Shown: positions 1 to 43,663 of the stretch, in pieces
Layout: every line of letters begins with the position of its first letter
Numbering within the stretch: the stretch's first letter is position 1
Sequence record: PZ445529.1
DNA length: 43,663 bases
Source: a phage
Strand: one strand, 5' to 3'
Program-made: the position numbers and the translations under genes
The notes under the pieces: generated by a model
Seen by the model: the letters and a program-made list of their open reading frames with translations, nothing else
Told to the model about the DNA's origin: nothing
Database searches by the model: none

Positions 1-121
1 GGGGTGCTGTCCCGCTGTCCCGATCGGCTAAACCCCGCGGCAGCACTGGTGGGGACGGGGTGCTGTCCCGCTTTGTCCCGCCCCTTGTTTGTCCCGCTTT
101 TTGTCCCGCTTAGTTTATGCA
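1..121. repeat. 3' part of copy A of a 169-bp dispersed element; six GTCCCG iteron cores (mostly TGTCCCGC) and a 15-bp direct repeat ggggtgctgtcccgc at 1-15 and 57-71
   Basis: 1-121 is identical to 27667-27787; with 43616-43663 it reconstitutes the full element found intact at 27619-27787. Confidence 0.9.
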
Positions 122-159
122 GTTTTATTGCATAACTATTCAATATATTTACACTACAC

Positions 160-207
160 GGCAACCAATGCGACCAGCTAAAAACACTCGAAATGGCAAC
201 CAATGCG
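160..207. repeat. two copies of 13-bp motif CGCATTGGTTGCC (reverse orientation) at 160-172 and 195-207; a third forward copy lies at 43540-43552
   Basis: Exact 13-mers read directly; they flank element copy A in inverted orientation, just 3' of the primase/helicase gene. Confidence 0.8.
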
Positions 208-2490: not shown

Positions 2491-2820
2491 TTACTTCGAA
2501 GTTTTGTTATTGCGTACCCAAGAGCGCACGGTGCTTTGGTTAATTCCTGTCAACTCCGCGATCATTGCCCATGACTTCCCCTCATCGCGCAAACGGATAA
2601 CCTGTTTTTTGTATTCTTCCATTTCCTCATTGTGCTTTTGCAGCTTGCTTGCTGCCGTACCGTTGAGTAATTCCAGCTTCGCGCGCAATTCTTTTTCGGT
2701 AAGTCGCAGACGTTCGATCTCAAATAGCACCGCACCCACGGCATCGGTATATGCCCAGGACCGGCTTGTCTCACTGCAAACAGTCTTAGTTAACATTTCG
2801 ATTGCGTCGTCAATATTCAT
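2491..2820 (-). CDS. small helix-turn-helix DNA-binding protein (candidate transcriptional regulator)
   Basis: 109-aa ORF; C-terminal HTH-like segment GKSWAMIAELTGINQSTVRSWV; RBS GGAGA 8 nt upstream of ATG; first gene of the operon with the primase. Confidence 0.65.
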   Translation of the reverse strand: MNIDDAIEMLTKTVCSETSRSWAYTDAVGAVLFEIERLRLTEKELRAKLELLNGTAASKLQKHNEEMEEYKKQVIRLRDEGKSWAMIAELTGINQSTVRSWVRNNKTSK

Positions 2821-2834
2821 TTTTCTGTCTCCGG

Positions 2835-2849
2835 TTGGTTAATGACCAA
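2835..2849. promoter_or_regulatory. operator-like imperfect palindrome TTGGTtaatgACCAA over the predicted transcription start of the HTH gene
   Basis: Inverted TTGGT/ACCAA half-sites; same half-site as the recurring TTGGTTGCA motif. Confidence 0.4.
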
Positions 2850-2851
2850 CG

Positions 2852-2880
2852 AAACTACACCTAAAACCGCGGGGTGTCAA
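2852..2880 (-). promoter_or_regulatory. sigma70-like promoter for the HTH-primase operon (-35 TTGACA, 17-bp spacer, -10 TAGTTT with upstream TG)
   Basis: Reverse complement of 2875-2880 is TTGACA; -10 region is the reverse complement of 2852-2857. Confidence 0.45.
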
Positions 2881-2893
2881 CTCCTTTGGAATA

Positions 2894-2922
2894 TTGAAAC
2901 GGGCGCGCACGCGTGTAATAAT
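2894..2922 (+). promoter_or_regulatory. sigma70-like promoter P1 (-35 TTGAAA, 17-bp spacer, -10 AATAAT with TG), back-to-back with the HTH promoter
   Basis: Hexamers read directly; a terminator lies only about 30-60 nt downstream. Confidence 0.4.
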
Positions 2923-2950
2923 ACTCCCGTCTCATTGTCTCTTATTGGTT

Positions 2951-2985
2951 AGCGCCGTTGCATTTTGCCTCGGCGCTTTTTTTTT
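2951..2985 (+). terminator. Rho-independent terminator (stem agcgccg/cggcgct, 13-nt loop, run of 9 T)
   Basis: Perfect 7-bp GC-rich stem followed by TTTTTTTTT, between promoter P1 and the main early promoter. Confidence 0.6.
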
Positions 2986-2995
2986 AAATTAGTTG

Positions 2996-3025
2996 TTGAC
3001 ACCTATCCTGCAACCAATCTATTAT
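2996..3025 (+). promoter_or_regulatory. main early promoter (-35 TTGACA, 18-bp spacer, -10 TATTAT) with TGCAACCAAT motif in the spacer
   Basis: ttgacacctatcctgcaaccaatctattat; drives the plus-strand early block through a ~195-nt leader. Confidence 0.55.
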
Positions 3026-5637: not shown

Positions 5638-5872
5638 AGTATTCGCAATCTTATTGATGTTTTTGCTCGGCGCGCTGGGCTTTCTCCTGCATTGCGTGCA
5701 AGGCGTGTTAATGGTGGCCTGGATGATTCGCCATCCAACCCAATGGCTTGATGACGGCTATAGCGAAGCTGCCGTCGATTGGGTGGCGAAGAACATTAAC
5801 CGCCCGCCGTTAAGCTGGATCGAGAACGCGACCAACTACGTTACCAGAAATCTTTTTAATGAAAATGCTTGA
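5630..5872 (+). CDS. small membrane protein (80 aa, N-terminal transmembrane helix)
   Basis: Hydrophobic N-terminus ILLMFLLGALGFLLHCV; RBS GAGGA 9 nt upstream; ATG overlaps upstream gene end. Confidence 0.5.
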   Translation: MNKVFAILLMFLLGALGFLLHCVQGVLMVAWMIRHPTQWLDDGYSEAAVDWVAKNINRPPLSWIENATNYVTRNLFNENA

Positions 5873-5961
5873 CCGCTTAGGCACAACCAAGTAGATTAGC
5901 AACCAAGCCGGACGGGGTGGCTTCCAATAACCCCGATACATGTGAAATGAGGAATTGGAAA

Positions 5962-9583: not shown

Positions 9584-9861
9584 TGACACCAGAAGGCAAG
9601 GTTCAAAGTCACCTGATGAAGCTGGTTAAAGCAGTTGGTGGATTCTGCCGCAAAGTGGCATGGGAGGGGCGCGCAGGCGCGCCCGACCTGATTATCATCA
9701 TCAACGGCCGCATAGTATTCGTCGAAGTGAAGCGCCCAGGCGGAAAACCGAAGCCGCACCAGGTACGTGAACATGAGAGGATGGCCCGCCGCGGCGCGGA
9801 CGTTCGCGTTATAGACAACATCGCCGACTGTGATTTGTTGGTTGCTGAATTGGTCGCATAG
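9583..9861 (+). CDS. VRR-NUC domain nuclease
   Basis: 92 aa; PD-(D/E)xK-type motifs GAPDLIII...FVEVKRPGGK...QVREH; RBS GGAGG. Confidence 0.7.
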   Translation: MTPEGKVQSHLMKLVKAVGGFCRKVAWEGRAGAPDLIIIINGRIVFVEVKRPGGKPKPHQVREHERMARRGADVRVIDNIADCDLLVAELVA

Positions 9862-9901
9862 CGGTATAGTGTGCCGGTTAGCCATATCGAGGATTTTAGA
9901 G

Positions 9902-12722: not shown

Positions 12723-12727
12723 ATTGG

Positions 12728-12756
12728 TTGCATAACCATATTGGTTGCATTATATT
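12728..12756 (+). promoter_or_regulatory. sigma70-like promoter (-35 TTGCAT, 17-bp spacer, -10 TATATT) built on two direct ATTGGTTGCAT copies
   Basis: aaattggttgcataaccatattggttgcattatatt; contains TGGTT-gcat-AACCA inverted repeat. Confidence 0.5.
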
Positions 12757-12758
12757 GA

Positions 12759-12783
12759 GGGTGTCCGGTTGGACGCCCTTTTT
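12759..12783 (+). terminator. leader hairpin/attenuator (gggtgtcc-ggtt-ggacgccc + TTTTT) between promoter and gene start
   Basis: 7 of 8 bp stem followed by T-run, lying after the promoter and before the ATG at 12803. Confidence 0.45.
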
Positions 12784-12802
12784 AATAACTGGAGACAGTG
12801 CG

Positions 12803-14187: not shown

Positions 14188-14654
14188 AATTACTGATTTG
14201 CGATTTGGATGGCGTTATTAATGGTTCAAGCGATGCGCGTGCCGACCTGGTGCCGGGGATAAAAACGAAATCAACCTTTTGGGCAAAGTGGCACAAAGCG
14301 CATGTACGCGAAGACCTGAACATGGATATGCTGCCGCTGTTGCGCATGTACAAAGAGCAAGGCTTCGAGATCGCGTATCTGACCAACCGGCAGCTAGAAT
14401 GCTGGGAGACTACCGCCGAGCAACTGGAGGTATTCCCGGCAGGCCGGTTGTTTATGCGCCACATGCTGGACGACACCCCGCCGCCAGAGTTTAAGGCGTG
14501 CGCTGTGTTCAAAATGGTCTGCTATGCAGACGTGTCTGAACTTGTCATCATTGAGGACTGCGAGAAGAACATCGCGGCAATTCGTCGGGCGTGCGGCGAT
14601 TTGGTCCCGAAAATTTACGCAATAAACGTTGCAAAATTCACTTGCAACCAATAG
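14184..14654 (+). CDS. HAD-superfamily hydrolase (nucleotidase/phosphatase-like)
   Basis: 156 aa; motif I LICDLDGVI (DxDG). Confidence 0.55.
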   Translation: MKLLICDLDGVINGSSDARADLVPGIKTKSTFWAKWHKAHVREDLNMDMLPLLRMYKEQGFEIAYLTNRQLECWETTAEQLEVFPAGRLFMRHMLDDTPPPEFKACAVFKMVCYADVSELVIIEDCEKNIAAIRRACGDLVPKIYAINVAKFTCNQ

Positions 14655-14660
14655 GTTGGT
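14632..14660 (+). promoter_or_regulatory. promoter-like element with perfect palindrome TGCAACCAA-tagg-TTGGTTGCA
   Basis: cttgcaaccaataggttggttgcattatag; -35 TTGCAA, 17-bp spacer, -10-like TTATAG. Confidence 0.45.
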
Positions 14661-14717
14661 TGCATTATAGTTAACGCGTCGGGGGGCAATACGGCCTCCC
14701 ATAAAAAGGACCACATA

Positions 14718-17389: not shown

Positions 17390-17410
17390 AGCTAAATCCT
17401 CGTAAATTGG

Positions 17411-17439
17411 TTGCAATCCAGGTTGAGCGGTGTAATACT
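17411..17439 (+). promoter_or_regulatory. promoter-like element with ATTGGTTGCAA motif (-35 TTGCAA, -10-like TAATAC) upstream of the lipoprotein gene
   Basis: cgtaaattggttgcaatccaggttgagcggtgtaatact. Confidence 0.4.
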
Positions 17440-17469: not shown

Positions 17470-17688
17470 ATGAAAACTTTAATTATGATTTGTGCGGTTC
17501 TTTTGTCCGGTTGTGCCAACATGCCCGCTAAAGTCTGCGACGCCACATACCAGAATAGCGGCATTGATTATGCGGTCCCTGTGTATGGTGTCGCAGACTT
17601 CTCCGGGCATAAAATGCTAAGGGCGGGTTATCCGTTTAGCTTCCAGTACGTGTCGGTAGACCATTTCAAAAACACCACCTGCGAATAA
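17470..17688 (+). CDS. small lipoprotein (73 aa) encoded antisense inside the tail gene block; candidate receptor-blocking/superinfection-exclusion protein
   Basis: Signal peptide with lipobox MKTLIMICAVLLSGC; RBS GGGGA; own promoter and terminator. Confidence 0.6.
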   Translation: MKTLIMICAVLLSGCANMPAKVCDATYQNSGIDYAVPVYGVADFSGHKMLRAGYPFSFQYVSVDHFKNTTCE

Positions 17689-27618: not shown

Positions 27619-27787
27619 CAGTCTCAGACGAGGGGGGCCACTGACCCCCGTCTAGTCTGAAAGACTGGGGTGCTGTCCCGCTGTCCCGATCGGCTAAACC
27701 CCGCGGCAGCACTGGTGGGGACGGGGTGCTGTCCCGCTTTGTCCCGCCCCTTGTTTGTCCCGCTTTTTGTCCCGCTTAGTTTATGCA
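27619..27787. repeat. copy B of the 169-bp element (palindrome + GTCCCG iterons), in the gap between the GT chaperone stop and the tape measure start
   Basis: Exact match to 43616-43663 + 1-121; followed at 27826-27857 by extra inverted GGGACA/GTCCCG copies (gggacaaaacgggacgtcccgatctgtcccgc). Confidence 0.9.
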
Positions 27788-27856
27788 ATAAATTCGAATA
27801 GGTATGCACATTTCAGGGGTGGGACAAAACGGGACGTCCCGATCTGTCCCGCTGCA

Positions 27857-33387: not shown

Positions 33388-33416
33388 TTGCAATCCTCAT
33401 ATTGGTTGCATATATT
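33388..33416 (+). promoter_or_regulatory. sigma70-like promoter (-35 TTGCAA, 17-bp spacer, -10 TATATT) with two ATTGGTTGCA copies
   Basis: cttgcaatcctcatattggttgcatatattggttgcacaccaaca; the 21-mer tatattggttgcacaccaaca recurs on the minus strand at 43413-43433. Confidence 0.55.
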
Positions 33417-33445
33417 GGTTGCACACCAACAACGAGGACACACTA

Positions 33446-34210
33446 ATGAGACTGACGAAAGACATTAAAAACCAGATTCTGGCTAACATCCTGCGCGACC
33501 ACGAAATCGCAACCGAAGCCAAACAAATCATGATGGACTCTCGCGATCTGGCGTACGCAATCACGCTGGACTGTATGCCGGACGGCATTCGCACATTCGC
33601 AGCGCTCCGCGAGCATATCAAGGAAATCCGCGACGACCAGTCGCAGATGTACGGCGTCAGCGTATACACCAACAAGGCGACGTATAGTTATAACTCCGAC
33701 CGCCCGAAGGGTATCGGCAGCGTCTATAACGCCACCTTTGAAATCAACGCAGGCGGCAATGTTCGCACCTTGTCATTGAGCGGTGACGGTCGCCAATACC
33801 GCGTACATCGCGGATACTGGGAAGAGAAATATATGAATAAGCTTGCGCCTGATCTCGGCGATATCGTTCCGGGGTTCGAGACAGTTATGCTCGCGTCGGT
33901 GTGTGAAGTGGACGAGGACGGGAATGCGCTGCCGATATATCTCCCTCGCGGTCGCGTAGATTACCCGGCAGACCATGACTTCTGTAAACGCTTGGACCGC
34001 AACGACAAGGCCCGTAGCGAGTTGCGCGCGAAGTATGATGCGTTCAAACTAACCGTTACCGGTGTTCTGGACCTGCACAATACTGACAAGAAGCTGATTA
34101 AGGCATGGCCTGAAGTTGAGCAATTCATCCCTTACCCGGACAAGCCGAAGTCCACGGCGGTGGCGCTGGATGTGAAAACTCTCAACGAGATTTGCGGTAT
34201 TCCGCGCTAA
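33446..34210 (+). CDS. hypothetical protein (254 aa) on a moron transcribed antisense to the structural operon
   Basis: ATG 33446 with RBS GAGGA 7 nt upstream; no signal peptide or TM segment seen; own promoter and terminator; no motif I recognise. Confidence 0.65.
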   Translation: MRLTKDIKNQILANILRDHEIATEAKQIMMDSRDLAYAITLDCMPDGIRTFAALREHIKEIRDDQSQMYGVSVYTNKATYSYNSDRPKGIGSVYNATFEINAGGNVRTLSLSGDGRQYRVHRGYWEEKYMNKLAPDLGDIVPGFETVMLASVCEVDEDGNALPIYLPRGRVDYPADHDFCKRLDRNDKARSELRAKYDAFKLTVTGVLDLHNTDKKLIKAWPEVEQFIPYPDKPKSTAVALDVKTLNEICGIPR

Positions 34211-39343: not shown

Positions 39344-40486
39344 TTACTTCAACATTTCCGGGCTAATGGTTAAGCGCGCTACTTCGCCGTAATTGGCGCT
39401 GTAGGTGATGACGTTGGCACTGCGGCCGGACATCCAACCGCCGCGGCTTGCGTATGCGTCTTTCGCTGCGAGTGTCCGGTGCTGTTCAACAATCATGTTG
39501 CGGGATTCTACAATCTTCTGGTGGTGCAAGTGGCCTACGTGCGCGTAGCTGTACTCACTGGACCCGAAAGCCTGTCTGAATTTAGAAATCATAACCTGCT
39601 CGATCGCATCGAATCGCGCTTTGTGCCCGTGGTGGAAGAATAGCGTGGTCTTGCCGTGCTGCACCATTTTGTAGACGTCAGGGGACGTATCCACATCGAC
39701 GCGCGGCTCGTTCTCGTACAGAGTATTGAACATCTCAGCCAGCCAAATCATACCCGACTCGTCATGATTCCCCTGGACGATTAGCAGTTTGACTTTGTGG
39801 TGTTTTTGCAGCGCCAGGTCTACCACGTTACGCACCATGCGAATCATGTAGCGGACCAACTTCTGGTATCGGGTATCTGCGTCCAGTATGTGACCACTGG
39901 CAGGAGTGACGGCATCGAGGCTATCAAAGTGCGCCATATCACCGAGGATATTAATCACGGCAGTGCCTGCGTCCGGTGCGCGTGCGAAGGCTTCGACAAA
40001 CCAGCGGTAAAACAGGTCTTCGGCGATCGCCATATCCCAGTCCTCGCCAGTCTCCTCGCCCCAGGCCAACATGCCCAGGTGGAAGTCGGACACGGTGTAC
40101 AGGTTGAGTAGGTCAAGTGCCTGGATCGGGACTGGTGGGGCGCTTACTGGTGCTGCCGGTGTGATCTCGCTGTTCATACCCTCGACAACGGCGCGCATTG
40201 CTTCAAGCTGGCGCTCCTTGTCCTGCTCAGTGATAACCCACGACATGACCTCTTCGCCATTGCCGCGTACCAGGGCGGATACGCGCTTAACACCAAAGCC
40301 ATCGGCAACGCGCTTACGGATTACATCATCGTTACCATGACCAATACCTTTCTTCGACAGGCGGGCTTTGCGCATGTAGACATTTCGGAGGGAAAGGCCG
40401 TACTTCTTAGAAATCTCTTTCGATGTAGCGCCGGATTGTAATTCAGCAATCAATTGCTCGTCGGTGATTTTAGTTTGCGGGTGCAT
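39344..40486 (-). CDS. HTH domain fused to calcineurin-like metallophosphoesterase
   Basis: 380 aa; N-terminal HTH-like GATSKEISKKYGLSLRNVY; metallophosphatase motifs DFHLG, GDMAHFD, GNHDE, HHGH, GHLHH. Confidence 0.7.
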   Translation of the reverse strand: MHPQTKITDEQLIAELQSGATSKEISKKYGLSLRNVYMRKARLSKKGIGHGNDDVIRKRVADGFGVKRVSALVRGNGEEVMSWVITEQDKERQLEAMRAVVEGMNSEITPAAPVSAPPVPIQALDLLNLYTVSDFHLGMLAWGEETGEDWDMAIAEDLFYRWFVEAFARAPDAGTAVINILGDMAHFDSLDAVTPASGHILDADTRYQKLVRYMIRMVRNVVDLALQKHHKVKLLIVQGNHDESGMIWLAEMFNTLYENEPRVDVDTSPDVYKMVQHGKTTLFFHHGHKARFDAIEQVMISKFRQAFGSSEYSYAHVGHLHHQKIVESRNMIVEQHRTLAAKDAYASRGGWMSGRSANVITYSANYGEVARLTISPEMLK

Positions 40487-40547
40487 ATTAATTCACTTCC
40501 AGATTATGGGACCGAGGACAATATACCACGGCCCATATTGTGGCGGG

Positions 40548-40628
40548 TTATAGCAATTCGCAAATAACCATACCGATAAACGCTGCGGCGGACCAGATTG
40601 CCAATACCCAAATATCATTACGTGCCAT
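40548..40628 (-). CDS. small hydrophobic peptide (26 aa) with strong RBS
   Basis: Hand-translated MARNDIWVLAIWSAAAFIGMVICELL; GAGGAG 8 nt upstream. Confidence 0.35.
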   Translation of the reverse strand: MARNDIWVLAIWSAAAFIGMVICELL

Positions 40629-40658
40629 AGTGTAATACTCCTCTTGTTGATTGGTCGC

Positions 40659-40688
40659 AGTATGGCGTCTATGTTGGTTGCAAGTCAA
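40659..40688 (-). promoter_or_regulatory. sigma70-like promoter (-35 TTGACT, 18-bp spacer, -10 CATACT) with TGCAACCAA motif at the -35
   Basis: Reverse complement of 40659-40688; sits just after the terminator that follows the Ig-like gene. Confidence 0.4.
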
Positions 40689-42626: not shown

Positions 42627-42818
42627 TCATGCTGCCGTCACGGCATCAAAGCGATTGACTATCTCATGCGTGACAATATCGTATTTCTCCGGCAGCTTTG
42701 CCTTACTCGCCCACCAGACACGATCGCTTGCGGCGTGGTGCAAGCGGACGTGTGCCGCAAGGGTCTGTATTGGCCTCAGGATTTTGCCATCTGCTTTACG
42801 GCGGAATAGTAATTTCAT
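42627..42818 (-). CDS. hypothetical protein (63 aa)
   Basis: ORF; start overlaps upstream stop. Confidence 0.45.
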   Translation of the reverse strand: MKLLFRRKADGKILRPIQTLAAHVRLHHAASDRVWWASKAKLPEKYDIVTHEIVNRFDAVTAA

Positions 42819-43084
42819 TTGCTCAGTCTCCAGTGTTTGCCTACCCGCTCAACGGCGGGCTTCCGGCGTAATGTAATACGGATCCCCATTGGTTGCAAGG
42901 AGGTCCGCACCCTGAAATCGTGTTGTGCTGCGAACTGGTGCAAGTAGCGAGTCTGCGTCAACGGCTTTACGTCGTCGCGATAGCACCAGAATACAGATTC
43001 ACCCTCAACCGCATTCTCAGCCCATATTCGTATGCAATGCAGGGGAATATGCCACGAAAGCTGTTTGGCGCGCCTACGGCTCAT
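42815..43084 (-). CDS. hypothetical basic protein (89 aa)
   Basis: ORF 10 nt after upstream stop. Confidence 0.45.
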   Translation of the reverse strand: MSRRRAKQLSWHIPLHCIRIWAENAVEGESVFWCYRDDVKPLTQTRYLHQFAAQHDFRVRTSLQPMGIRITLRRKPAVERVGKHWRLSK

Positions 43085-43399: not shown

Positions 43400-43427
43400 T
43401 GTTCAGTCCTCATGTTGGTGTGCAACC

Positions 43428-43456
43428 AATATAGCAAGGTGCCAGGCCGGATGCAA
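43428..43456 (-). promoter_or_regulatory. sigma70-like promoter (-35 TTGCAT, 17-bp spacer, -10 TATATT) with two ATTGGTTGCA copies
   Basis: Reverse complement gives ttgcat-ccggcctggcaccttgc-tatatt; shares an identical 21-mer with the promoter at 33388-33416. Confidence 0.55.
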
Positions 43457-43539
43457 CCAATATTAATCACGCGCATGAAAAAGTTGATCGCTATCTGCTG
43501 AGACTGCAAACCGCATTTTTCACTCAACATAATACAACC

Positions 43540-43552
43540 CGCATTGGTTGCC
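43540..43552. repeat. forward copy of CGCATTGGTTGCC motif
   Basis: Exact match to the reverse complement of 160-172 and 195-207. Confidence 0.8.
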
Positions 43553-43615
43553 TAGTTCCGCGACGACCGCAATCCGCAACATGCTGCCGTGTATTTTGCA
43601 ATCCAGGATTTTATG

Positions 43616-43663
43616 CAGTCTCAGACGAGGGGGGCCACTGACCCCCGTCTAGTCTGAAAGACT
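43616..43663. repeat. 5' part of copy A of the 169-bp element (imperfect GC-rich palindrome cagtctcagacgaggggggccactgacccccgtctagtctgaaagact)
   Basis: 43616-43663 is identical to 27619-27666; window end joins window start seamlessly as in copy B. Confidence 0.9.

What the first reader, a model, noticed from the sequence alone, without database searches (positions are those of the whole stretch)
12723..12783. Recurring ATTGGTTGCA motif defines a promoter/operator family across early, moron and late-upstream promoters
The same 9-11-mer (either orientation) sits at or beside sigma70-like hexamers at 3010-3020, 12723-12749 (two copies), 14632-14652 (perfect palindrome TGCAACCAA-tagg-TTGGTTGCA), 17405-17416, 33401-33424 (two copies), 40672-40682, 42886-42897 and 43421-43460 (two copies), with related half-sites in TTGGTtaatgACCAA at 2835-2849. 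Most are intergenic and placed so TTGCA(T/A) serves as a -35 17 bp before a TATATT-like -10; the palindromes suggest a dimeric DNA-binding protein. Candidates are the small HTH protein (2491-2820) or the HTH domain of the metallophosphoesterase fusion.
Basis: seen in the sequence. Interest (0 to 1): 0.62.

Follow-up and report, generated by a model that had tools for sequence, protein, structure and literature searches.

The report
Phage-wide promoter operator motif ATTGGTTGCA
A 10-base word, ATTGGTTGCA, is built into nearly every promoter of this E. coli phage and its whole genus, and is most likely the docking site of a small phage-encoded DNA-binding protein that controls all phage transcription units; the kind of system is familiar, but this one has not been described.

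Summary
TTGGTTGCA occurs 12 times against 0.4 expected. Ten of the 12 copies are intergenic, and seven more TTGGTTGC variants exist. The window is a complete, circularly permuted Dhillonvirus genome (HK578/SSL-2009a-like virulent siphophage). The motif is equally enriched in every relative examined, down to 72% nucleotide identity, and is absent from four outgroup genera.

Copies sit inside about ten sigma70-like promoter cores, at the -35, in the spacer, or over the -10/+1. They occur in either orientation, usually as direct pairs 12-31 bp apart. In alignments, motif columns are as conserved as the hexamers (0.965 and 0.949), while the remaining promoter positions drift (0.837).

This fits an asymmetric operator for a dedicated protein. 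Its TTGCA(A/T) end also serves as the -35 in about six promoters. The best candidate binder is the 109-aa protein at 2491-2820. It is genus-restricted like the motif, its C-terminal resolvase/sigma-4-type HTH is invariant, and a site lies in its own promoter. The phosphoesterase fusion is disfavoured.

Binding, the sign of regulation and transcription starts remain untested. I found no published description. Verdict: new member of a known kind, moderate interest.

The parts
2996..3025 (+). P1, promoter of the replication/recombination operon (gene 3042->): TTGACA 2996-3001, inverted motif TGCAACCAA 3009-3017 in the spacer, TATTAT 3020-3025
   Evidence: Top promoter-scan hit, 11/12; block conserved in 7 genomes; conservation profile
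2835..2880 (-). Promoter of the HTH gene itself: TTGACA 2880-2875, 17 bp, TAGTTT 2857-2852, then the half-site palindrome TTGGTcattaACCAA (2849-2835) over the predicted start, then SD and ATG 2820
   Evidence: Read from the sequence and the alignment. In divergent relatives L167, L168, L169 and L170 a full or 1-mismatch inverted motif sits between the -10 and the SD of the HTH gene
2491..2820 (-). HTH-109: 109-aa protein and candidate motif-binding regulator. It has a variable N-terminal ~40 aa, a long helix (residues 21-79) and a C-terminal tri-helical HTH (84-107)
   Evidence: Pfam HTH_23, Sigma70_r4_2 and HTH_28 above their cut-offs; alignments; AlphaFold model with pLDDT 88; fold matches for the HTH part only; family limited to Dhillonvirus-size contigs
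5869..5906 (+). P5917 (ssDNA-binding protein/DNA polymerase genes): TTGACC 5869-5874, ACAACCAA 5883-5890, TAGATT 5892-5897, AGCAACCAA 5898-5906 (two degenerate copies, inverted relative to transcription)
9838..9870 (+). P9902: TTGGTTGCT 9838-9846 (TTGCTG as the -35), TTGGTCGCA 9850-9858 in the spacer, TATAGT 9865-9870
   Evidence: an orthologous block occurs in L169/L170
12724..12756 (+). The terminator hairpin of the upstream operon, 12759-12778 plus a T-run, follows immediately, so the predicted start falls inside its 5' arm
   Evidence: the terminator is annotated at the orthologous place in PTXU06
14642..14671 (+). P3: TTGCAACCAA (inverted copy 14643-14651, with TTGCAA as the -35), direct copy 14656-14664, TATAGT 14666-14671. 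This is the only palindromic pair
   Evidence: in slur05 the second copy is flipped but kept next to the -10
17407..17439 (+). P4, promoter of the cor-like superinfection-exclusion moron: motif 17407-17415 (TTGCAA as the -35), AATACT 17434-17439
33388..33423 (+). P5, moron promoter (Nmad5 gene 33446-34210): TTGCAA 33388-33393, motif 33402-33410 in the spacer, TATATT 33411-33416, motif 33415-33423 over the -10/+1
   Evidence: the block is present in 148 phage records, with variable cargo downstream
40651..40688 (-). P6, upstream of the phosphoesterase/terminase/structural operon: TTGACT 40688-40683, TGCAACCAA (40682-40674) abutting it, CATACT 40664-40659, TGCGACCAA (40659-40651)
   Evidence: relatives swap which of the two copies is perfect
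42870..42898 (-). P8, an internal promoter-like block inside the 89-aa ORF 42815-43084: TTGCAACCAAT (motif 42889-42897), 17 bp, TACATT 42875-42870
43421..43460 (-). P7, promoter of the gp01...holin/lysin operon: motif 43460-43452 (TTGCAT as the -35), 17 bp, TATATT 43433-43428 overlapped by motif 43429-43421
161..204 (-). Two GCATTGGTTGCC variant copies, 35 bp apart, in the primase-gp01 intergenic region. A third copy lies at 43544-43552 (+)
   Evidence: conserved in L167 and L169

Best explanation
ATTGGTTGCA is an asymmetric, genus-specific operator built into the core of essentially every sigma70-type promoter of this virulent Dhillonvirus.

Shown:
- The word is about 30-fold over-represented.
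- It lies almost only in promoter-like intergenic blocks, in one or two copies per promoter.
- It occupies three kinds of position: over the -35, in the spacer next to the -10, and over the -10/+1.
- It occurs in either orientation, and is as conserved as the promoter hexamers while neighbouring bases drift.

Inferred:
- A dedicated sequence-specific protein binds each copy, as a monomer or as a flexibly linked dimer taking two copies.
- Because most copies overlap RNA polymerase contact points, binding mainly throttles transcription. This would be a Cro-like, genome-wide turn-down that includes autoregulation.
- At promoters whose -35 is only the motif's TTGCA(A/T), the same word also serves as the weak -35. 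A bound protein could alternatively help polymerase there.
- The most likely binder is the 109-aa early protein encoded at 2491-2820, divergently from P1. It has a long helical stalk and a C-terminal resolvase/LuxR/sigma-region-4-type helix-turn-helix.
For: Enrichment: 12 against 0.40.

Location: 10 of 12 nine-mers and 15 of 19 eight-mers are intergenic (p = 2.5e-10 and 2.6e-14).

Distribution: 9-12 copies in each of six complete relatives, where it ranks among the three to five most over-represented 9-mers. It persists in lineages at about 69-72% nucleotide identity (L167, L169, L170).

Phylogenetic footprint over 10 promoter blocks and up to 20 distinct sequences: motif columns 0.965, hexamer columns 0.949, other columns 0.837 (Mann-Whitney p = 4.8e-9).

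Constraint beyond RNA polymerase contacts: the footprint covers ATTGG upstream of the -35 hexamer, and it covers whole 9-mers in spacers.

Orientation: in slur05 the P3 spacer copy is inverted yet retained next to the -10. At P6, relatives alternate which copy is perfect.

Promoter coverage: nearly all good intergenic promoter candidates carry the motif, and the late region has no other convincing promoter.

For HTH-109 as the binder:
- Pfam HTH_23, Sigma70_r4_2 and HTH_28 score above their cut-offs.
- The family comprises only 24 clusters among 5.8 billion proteins. It is found on Dhillonvirus-size contigs or short fragments and in 155 phage records. This matches the motif's distribution.
- The motif is absent from Kagunavirus, Jerseyvirus, Braunvirinae and Bonnellvirus genomes.
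- The C-terminal module, including the recognition helix, is invariant while the N-terminus is hypervariable.
- A site lies between the -10 and the SD of its own gene in L167, L168, L169 and L170. In the window a TTGGT/ACCAA half-site palindrome sits at the same place.
- The model shows a long helix plus a tri-helical HTH that superposes at about 1 A on DNA-binding domains recognising short half-sites.
Against: No binding, footprint, transcription-start or expression data exist for any Dhillonvirus in the literature I could search.

The phyletic match is necessary but not specific, because other genus-restricted proteins of unknown fold could be the binder.

Every promoter has the motif, so a site at the HTH gene's own promoter is not discriminating. 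In the window that promoter has only half-sites.

A repressor sitting on all promoters, including the late one (P6), needs an extra mechanism for temporal control, and none was found.

The window's 12 copies have a -10-like TAnATT just upstream, which permits a polymerase-only reading for some copies.

The fold search gave no significant full-length match (best E = 0.88).
Confidence: 0.5

Rival explanations
1. Positive control or polymerase retargeting. The motif-binding phage protein is an activator, working like lambda CII on direct TTGC repeats or like T4 MotA at middle promoters. It recruits host RNA polymerase to promoters whose -35 is only TTGCA(A/T). The motif would then define 'phage promoter identity' rather than repression.
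For: About six promoters (P2, P3, P4, P7, P8, P9902) have a weak -35, 3-4 of 6 matches to TTGACA, supplied by the motif itself. Pairs are direct repeats, as at CII-dependent promoters (CII recalled from my own knowledge). HTH-109 scores on the sigma-70 region 4 model.
Against: Copies over the -10/+1 (P5, P7, P6, P5917) and inside spacers are at positions where a bound protein normally blocks polymerase. Position and orientation relative to the -10 are not fixed, unlike MotA boxes. Promoters with near-consensus -35 elements (P1, P6, P5917) carry the motif too. No MotA- or AsiA-like domains appeared in the roughly 30 proteins scanned.
Confidence: 0.15
2. No separate factor. The word is a promoter-intrinsic sequence read by host sigma70 polymerase alone: TTGCA(A/T) as the -35, or TAtATT+GGTTGC+A as -10, discriminator and start site. 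It recurs because promoter modules were duplicated and shuffled within the genome.
For: In the window, 10 of 12 copies have A at -3 and 10 of 12 have A at -1, so TAnATT precedes GGTTGCA with CA at the expected start distance. P3 and P5 share about 45 bp of extended similarity, P5 and P7 share 21 bp, and P2 and P4 share cgTAAATTGGTTGCA. This shows that the modules are paralogous.
Against: Genus-wide, position -3 is A in only 45 of 112 distinct sites and G in 37. At P5 site 1 most relatives have G there, which abolishes a -10. Inverted copies (14643, 42889, 5898) lack a -10-like flank. Spacer copies have no hexamer partner at a usable distance. Polymerase does not constrain 9 contiguous spacer bases, nor ATTGG upstream of a -35. 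Flanks have diverged completely while the 9-mer is exact, so duplication alone does not explain the pattern.
Confidence: 0.15
3. The binder is another protein: the N-terminal HTH-like segment of the 380-aa metallophosphoesterase (39344-40486), a different small phage protein, or a host factor.
For: The phosphoesterase N-terminus gives a weak, sub-threshold GerE/LuxR match (E = 9e-4). The SO-1 record calls its homolog a putative transcriptional regulator. P6, with two copies, lies just upstream of its gene. An unrelated viral contig (L099) has one motif pair next to a 34%-identical homolog. The half-site ATTGGT resembles GntR/FadR-type half-sites such as the PdhR box (from my own knowledge).
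Against: The phosphoesterase, N-terminus included, is 75-76% identical in Kagunavirus and Jerseyvirus, and those genomes lack the motif. The family occurs in 2,034 phage records of many genera. L169 and L170 keep 13 copies per 20 kb but have no homolog in the region where it lies in Dhillonviruses. In the L099 phage group the pair is the only occurrence in 21 kb and is lost in relatives. A host factor would not explain absence from other E. coli and Salmonella siphophages. The sites are asymmetric, unlike GntR-type palindromes.
Confidence: 0.15
4. The repeats matter mainly as recombination modules. Short identical promoter-associated sequences would give microhomology for exchanging cargo genes, as proposed for promoter-stem-loop repeats in T4-type phages. 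Regulation would be secondary.
For: Downstream of the invariant P5 block the genes differ between phages. BLAST matches in dozens of records stop right after TTGGTTGCACACCAAC. The gene set after site 42889 also varies.
Against: Most copies flank conserved, syntenic genes. Microhomology use does not require exact conservation of a 9-mer in both orientations at defined places inside promoter cores. This is better seen as a by-product.
Confidence: 0.05

Closest known systems
Promoter-associated direct repeats of T1-like phages (TLS 21-nt repeat aaATAGCACnnnTTGnTAAAA; PMC11447400)
   Same: A lineage-specific short repeat found about 20 times, almost always intergenic, in a virulent E. coli siphophage that uses host RNA polymerase. 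Its function is unknown and it has been discussed as an operator, enhancer or stoperator. I found the same type of repeat (ATAGCACGAATTG) in the T1-like phage TR3.
   Different: The sequence is different, and the TLS repeat is longer and occurs as direct repeats. The Dhillonvirus word is embedded in the -35, spacer and -10 themselves and occurs in both orientations. No binder is proposed for TLS.
Mycobacteriophage L5 gp71 repressor and its 13-bp asymmetric 'stoperators' (Brown et al. 1997, cited in PMC11447400; details from my own knowledge)
   Same: Many copies of an asymmetric site per genome, bound by a small HTH protein without a need for dyad symmetry. Some copies overlap promoters.
   Different: Stoperators lie mostly inside transcription units in one orientation and stop elongation in a prophage. 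Here the sites are at promoter cores, in both orientations, in a virulent phage.
Lambda Cro/CI operators (from my own knowledge)
   Same: A small early HTH protein encoded divergently from the replication operon, with sites overlapping early promoters and its own promoter. Turn-down of early transcription during lytic growth is a plausible analogy.
   Different: Lambda operators are 17-bp pseudo-palindromes clustered at two loci. Here the sites are 10-bp asymmetric words spread over about 10 promoters, mostly as direct pairs with 12-31 bp spacing.
Lambda CII-dependent and T4 MotA-dependent promoters (from my own knowledge)
   Same: A phage factor recognises a short word that overlaps or replaces a weak -35. 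CII uses direct TTGC repeats, and the motif contains TTGC.
   Different: The position relative to the -10 is not fixed. Copies also cover the -10/+1. No MotA or AsiA homologs were found.
Serine-recombinase (resolvase/invertase) C-terminal DNA-binding domain
   Same: HTH-109 has a long helix followed by a tri-helical HTH. The HTH part superposes at 0.7-1.5 A on the Sin, Tn3 and gamma-delta resolvase domains, and Pfam HTH_23 matches. Some GenBank records call the protein a resolvase or transposase.
   Different: It has no catalytic domain and is only 109 aa. The full-length fold match is not significant (E = 0.88 or worse).

Membership tests
Sigma70-type promoter | -35-like and -10-like hexamers 16-18 bp apart, with A at position 2 and T at position 6 of the -10 | tested here: met
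   Met at scan thresholds for P1, P5917, P3, P4, P5, P6 and P8. P2, P7 and P9902 have TTGCAT/TTGCTG (3 of 6) plus good -10 elements, read directly.
Sigma70-type promoter | Lies upstream of, and points toward, a gene or operon; conserved in relatives | tested here: met
Sigma70-type promoter | Mapped transcription start | not testable with these tools
   No TSS or RNA-seq data for Dhillonviruses were found.
Operator set of a phage HTH regulator (Cro/CI-like) | Sites overlap the promoter core | tested here: met
   Copies lie at the -35, in the spacer and over the -10/+1 of about 10 promoters.
Operator set of a phage HTH regulator (Cro/CI-like) | Dyad-symmetric operator bound by a symmetric dimer | tested here: not met
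   The logo is asymmetric. There are 30 direct against 6 inverted pairs, with spacings of 12-31 bp.
Operator set of a phage HTH regulator (Cro/CI-like) | A cognate DNA-binding protein encoded by the phage, with a site in its own promoter | tested here: inconclusive
   HTH-109 fits by distribution and by its own-promoter sites, but binding is untested.
L5-type stoperators | Many asymmetric sites per genome | tested here: met
L5-type stoperators | Sites inside transcription units, in one orientation relative to transcription | tested here: not met
   The sites are at promoters, and both orientations occur relative to the downstream gene.
T4 MotA-box middle promoters | The box sits at a fixed distance (about -30) from the -10 and replaces the -35 | tested here: not met
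   Copies take three position classes and two orientations.
T4 MotA-box middle promoters | MotA/AsiA-type proteins are encoded | tested here: not met
   No such Pfam hits in the 30 proteins scanned. The remaining proteins were not scanned.
Sigma54 promoter (TGGCAC-N5-TTGCA) | GG and GC elements 10-11 bp apart | tested here: not met
   Read directly from the sites. GG and GC are 4 bp apart within a copy, and no pair gives the required spacing.
Serine recombinase | N-terminal catalytic domain with an active-site serine | tested here: not met
   The protein is 109 aa with no resolvase catalytic-domain hit. Only the HTH part matches.
TLS/T1-like 21-nt direct repeat | Consensus aaATAGCACnnnTTGnTAAAA | tested here: not met
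   The word here is different. The TLS-like word is enriched in TR3, not in the window.

The most novel reading that the evidence does not exclude
HTH-109 is a stand-alone resolvase-type DNA-binding module on a coiled-coil stalk with a hypervariable N-terminal head. It would act as the master specificity factor of the phage: it sits on every promoter, silences those with consensus -35 elements and licenses those whose -35 is the motif itself. Its titration by replicating genomes (each new genome copy adds about 20 sites) would set the early-to-late switch. The fast-evolving head would be the surface that contacts host polymerase or that escapes host defence sensing.
Probability: 0.1. Interest if true: 0.65.

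Novelty: new member of a known kind. Interest (0 to 1): 0.45.

Why it matters
Dhillonviruses are common, easily isolated E. coli phages. They are part of the BASEL collection and are used in defence-system and therapy work, yet nothing is known about how they time their transcription.

This result gives a concrete, testable map:
- about ten promoters
- one 10-bp word
- one prime candidate regulator

If confirmed, it would explain how a virulent siphophage without its own polymerase coordinates all its transcription units. It would supply portable promoter/operator parts for phage engineering. It would also explain why accessory (moron) genes are exchanged behind an invariant promoter block.

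The idea may extend to the unexplained promoter-associated repeats of T1-like phages. This is a solid, ordinary type of regulatory system rather than a new principle.

Tried and rejected
1. Embedded -10/discriminator/start-site reading (TAtATT+GGTTGC+A). It looks attractive in the window. Genus-wide, position -3 is A or G, and inverted and spacer copies do not fit. It is kept only as a minor rival.

2. Sigma54 and GntR/PdhR-type readings. Rejected by spacing and asymmetry, read directly from the sites.

3. Scan of 2.9 million viral contigs for paired copies. Apart from six Dhillonvirus-like loci, it returned mostly tandem coding repeats or iteron-like arrays in unrelated contigs. It was not informative.

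4. Lead from that scan: contigs L087 and L099 carry one motif pair next to a 34% phosphoesterase homolog. Wider flanks and 17 relatives showed no genome-wide enrichment, so this is a chance or local feature. That phage has no match in GenBank phages.

5. Remote HTH-like hits L023 and L024 (30-32% identity, low GC) have no motif and are uninformative.

6. The Kagunavirus small HTH upstream of its primase shows only generic HTH similarity to HTH-109.

7. HTH-109 against the phosphoesterase N-terminus: no similarity.

8. PDB sequence search: nothing useful. Rfam: no hit in the window.

9. Literature. Searches for the word itself, Dhillonvirus with promoter or transcriptome, HK578/SSL-2009a and SO-1 found no description of the motif and no TSS data.

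10. Co-variation between HTH alleles and the motif. The DNA-reading part is invariant, so the test could only show consistency, not specificity.
Full report
**What the window is**

The 43,663-bp window (54.7% G+C) is 89-93% identical over long stretches to many Escherichia phages of the genus Dhillonvirus: SM_S22, PTXU06, SSL-2009a, Envy and others. Its two ends are contiguous. The sequence that follows the repeat block at 27640-27790 is found at the window's far end, and window 1-125 is 100% identical to that block. The window is therefore a circularly permuted whole genome.

The gene layout comes from the ORF list, Pfam/PHROG hits and annotated relatives:
- Minus strand, 2820->216: a 109-aa HTH protein and the primase/helicase.
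- Plus strand, 3042->15794: replication, recombination and methylase genes.
- Plus strand, ending at 17688: a cor-like superinfection-exclusion moron.
- Plus strand, 33446-34210: an Nmad5 moron.
- Minus strand, 43399->40725: small genes plus holins and lysin.
- Minus strand, 40486->17709: phosphoesterase, terminase, head and tail genes.

Yes. TTGGTTGCA occurs 12 times on both strands against 0.40 expected from dinucleotide-preserving shuffles. No shuffle exceeded 4.

The one error is that the perfect palindrome is at 14643-14664 rather than 14632-14652.

Ten of the 12 copies are intergenic in a genome that is about 93% coding (p = 2.5e-10). The 8-mer TTGGTTGC occurs 19 times, 15 of them intergenic (p = 2.6e-14).

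The extra degenerate copies reveal two more promoter-like blocks, at 5869-5906 and 9838-9870. They also reveal three GCATTGGTTGCC variants in the primase-gp01 intergenic region.

In the window the flank reads t-A-t-A before TTGGTTGCA. Over 112 distinct sites from eight genomes, only the A at -1 is clearly preferred, so the core is A-TTGGTTGC-A.

**Where the copies sit**

I read each site with its flanks and aligned the orthologous regions of seven complete genomes. Every copy turned out to lie inside a block that also has sigma70-like hexamers, pointing at the downstream gene. The exact coordinates are given under parts. The positions fall into three classes:
- Over the -35, where TTGCA plus A or T forms the hexamer. 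This applies to P2, P3, P4, P7, P8 and P9902.
- In the spacer, 0-2 bp from the -10 in most cases (6 bp at P9902). This applies to P1, P2, P3, P5, P5917 and P9902.
- Over the -10/+1. This applies to P5, P7, P6 and P5917.

Promoters with a near-consensus -35 of their own carry the word in inverted orientation. These are P1 (TTGACA), P6 (TTGACT) and P5917 (TTGACC).

A simple consensus scan recovers P1, P5917, P3, P5 and P6 among its best intergenic hits. It finds no other convincing promoter in the 23-kb late region, which does contain several strong terminators.

The HTH gene has its own promoter: TTGACA, 17 bp, TAGTTT. A half-site palindrome, TTGGTcattaACCAA, lies over the predicted start.

**Selection**

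Using up to 20 distinct orthologous sequences per block, the mean column identity to the window was:
- 0.965 for motif columns (n = 152)
- 0.949 for hexamer-only columns (n = 82)
- 0.837 for the remaining columns of the same blocks (n = 205)

The difference between motif and remaining columns is significant (Mann-Whitney p = 4.8e-9). The variable positions are exactly the spacer stretches that are neither motif nor hexamer.

The constraint covers ATTGG upstream of -35 hexamers and complete 9-mers inside spacers. RNA polymerase contacts do not explain either.

Two natural experiments point the same way. In slur05 the P3 spacer copy is inverted but kept next to the -10. At P6, relatives alternate which of the two copies is perfect.

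**Distribution**

The word is present 9-12 times in each of six complete Dhillonvirus genomes, and is among the three to five most over-represented 9-mers in each. It is present in all partial Dhillonvirus loci collected.

It persists in clearly more divergent Dhillon-like phages. L167 has a primase at 69% nucleotide identity. L169 and L170 are about 72% identical over the alignable part and carry 13 TTGGTTGC copies per 20 kb, at orthologous promoter positions.

It is not enriched in Kagunavirus, Jerseyvirus, Braunvirinae or Bonnellvirus genomes (0-2 copies). The T1-like TR3 instead has its own repeat, ATAGCACGAATTG, like the 21-nt repeat described for TLS (PMC11447400).

**Geometry**

Pairs within 40 bp are direct in 30 cases and inverted in 6, across eight genomes. 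The spacings are 12, 13, 14, 17, 23 and 31 bp. The only inverted locus is P3, and it is direct in slur05.

This is not the geometry of a symmetric dimer on a palindrome. It fits independent binding of an asymmetric reader, or a dimer with flexibly tethered DNA-binding heads.

**Who binds?**

*HTH-109 (2491-2820).* This protein scores above the Pfam cut-offs for HTH_23, Sigma70_r4_2 and HTH_28 in residues 65-105.

By tblastn it is found in 155 phage records, essentially all Dhillonviruses. There are two main alleles, at 91% identity or more and at about 78%, plus a few variants. In a database of 5.8 billion proteins it has only 24 relatives, on contigs of Dhillonvirus size or on short fragments.

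Alignments show an invariant C-terminal module, AKLELLNGTAASKL.KHN.EME.YK.QVI.LR.EGKSWAMIAE.TGIN.STVRSWVRN. It follows an N-terminal stretch of about 40 residues that is swapped or hypervariable. So wherever the motif is conserved, the DNA-reading part is too.

The AlphaFold model (mean pLDDT 88) has a short helix, one 59-residue helix and a tri-helical HTH. Foldseek finds no significant full-length match. The HTH does superpose at 0.7-1.5 A on several DNA-binding domains: serine recombinases (Sin, Tn3/gamma-delta), DeoR, LuxR/GerE/NarL and sigma region 4. These are domains that read short half-sites.

In L167, L168, L169 and L170, a full or 1-mismatch inverted copy lies between the TATATT -10 and the ribosome-binding site of this very gene. 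That position is typical of autoregulation.

*The phosphoesterase fusion (39344-40486).* Its N-terminus gives only a sub-threshold GerE match. The protein, N-terminus included, is 75-76% identical in Kagunavirus and Jerseyvirus, which lack the motif. The family occurs in 2,034 phage records. L169 and L170 show no homolog in the 20 kb that spans its usual place. It is therefore disfavoured, though not excluded.

*A host factor.* This is unlikely, because other coliphage and Salmonella siphophage genera do not use the word.

**Mechanism**

The anatomy, the enrichment, the conservation and the phyletic patterns are shown. The rest is inferred.

I infer that a phage-encoded protein, most probably HTH-109 made early from its own strong promoter, binds the 10-bp words. 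Most words overlap the -35, the spacer next to the -10 or the -10/+1, so occupancy should compete with RNA polymerase. It would then turn promoters down, including the protein's own. This resembles what Cro does in lambda, but spread over all transcription units.

At the promoters whose -35 is only the motif's TTGCA(A/T), the word has a double role. Activation there, in the manner of CII or MotA, cannot be excluded.

How a factor bound at all promoters would produce temporal order is open. Differences in copy number, position and match quality are one possibility. Titration by replicating genomes is another.

**Comparison with known systems and novelty**

The closest analogue in kind is the promoter-associated repeat of T1-like phages (PMC11447400), whose function is also unknown. 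In logic, the closest are the asymmetric L5 stoperators and lambda Cro/CI operators. Each fails on at least one defining feature tested here: orientation and location for stoperators, dyad symmetry for Cro/CI, and fixed position for MotA boxes.

None of the 148 GenBank records that contain the P5 block annotates a regulatory feature there. No paper in the searchable library mentions the motif or Dhillonvirus transcription.

I therefore classify it as a new member of a known kind: phage-specific promoter/operator words with a cognate small HTH regulator. Interest is moderate.

**Limits**

Gene starts are approximate. Promoters are consensus predictions without mapped starts. Conservation statistics come from related sequences that are not independent. 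Only part of the L169/L170 genomes could be seen. No protein-DNA interaction has been tested.

Noticed in passing
window 1-125 (continuing across the ends to ~43600-43663) and 27640-27790: Two copies of a >125-bp block are 100% identical within the genome. Both are rich in TGTCCCGC(T)/AGCGGGACA iteron-like repeats (10 copies of the 9-mer against 0.28 expected). One lies between the primase/helicase and gp01, the other between the tail-chaperone and tape-measure genes. They correspond to 'repeat regions B and A' annotated in Sodalis phage SO-1. They could be origins or packaging sites, and the perfect identity suggests homogenisation.
   Followed up: partly
window 2894-2985 (+): A possible short transcript lies between the HTH promoter and P1. 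It has TTGAAA-17-AATAAT with TG before the -10 (10/12 in the scan), then about 55 nt ending in a strong terminator (GCGCCG...CGGCGC plus T9; fold z = -3.2). The stretch is nearly invariant across seven genomes. It has no Rfam match and contains ATTGGTTAGC, a near-copy of the motif.
   Followed up: partly
window 2491-2820 (-), residues 1-45 of the protein: The N-terminal ~40 residues of HTH-109 are hypervariable or swapped between otherwise close phages, while the C-terminal 60 residues are invariant. This pattern suggests a diversifying interaction surface.
   Followed up: partly
window 12751-12785: The P2 -10 (12751-12756) directly abuts the intrinsic terminator of the upstream operon (hairpin 12759-12778 plus T-run). 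Transcripts started at P2 would lack the 5' arm and escape termination, a compact terminator/promoter overlap.
   Followed up: no
window 33388-33431 and downstream; L001, L002, L005, L006: The P5 promoter block is invariant, but the genes behind it differ between phages: Nmad5 alone, extra ORFs, or a gene annotated as DNA polymerase III beta subunit or RusA-like resolvase (possible moron) in SO-1/CHD5UKE2. Many BLAST matches end right after TTGGTTGCACACCAAC, so the block looks like a cargo-exchange junction.
   Followed up: partly
window 17709-40486 (-): The late operon has strong intrinsic terminators on the coding strand, at about 39323, 34236, 31382, 28572 and 24902. There are no convincing promoters after them, so late expression needs read-through or antitermination.
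   Followed up: no
L166 (Escherichia phage TR3, Braunvirinae): This phage has its own over-represented word, (T)CGTGCTATT/ATAGCACGAATTG (5-6 copies against 0.06-0.11 expected). It matches the core of the 21-nt direct repeat reported for phage TLS.
   Followed up: no
L045:2750-3100 (viral contig IMGVR_UViG_3300038463_000167): An unrelated 19-kb contig (56% G+C) has 9 copies of cctaATTGGTTGCATCC within 350 bp, in both orientations, resembling an iteron or operator array. No HTH-109 or phosphoesterase homolog lies nearby.
   Followed up: no
window 40530-40630 (-): A short conserved ORF of about 30 codons (ATGGCACGTAATGAT...) lies between P6 and the phosphoesterase gene. It is deleted in SO-1.
   Followed up: no
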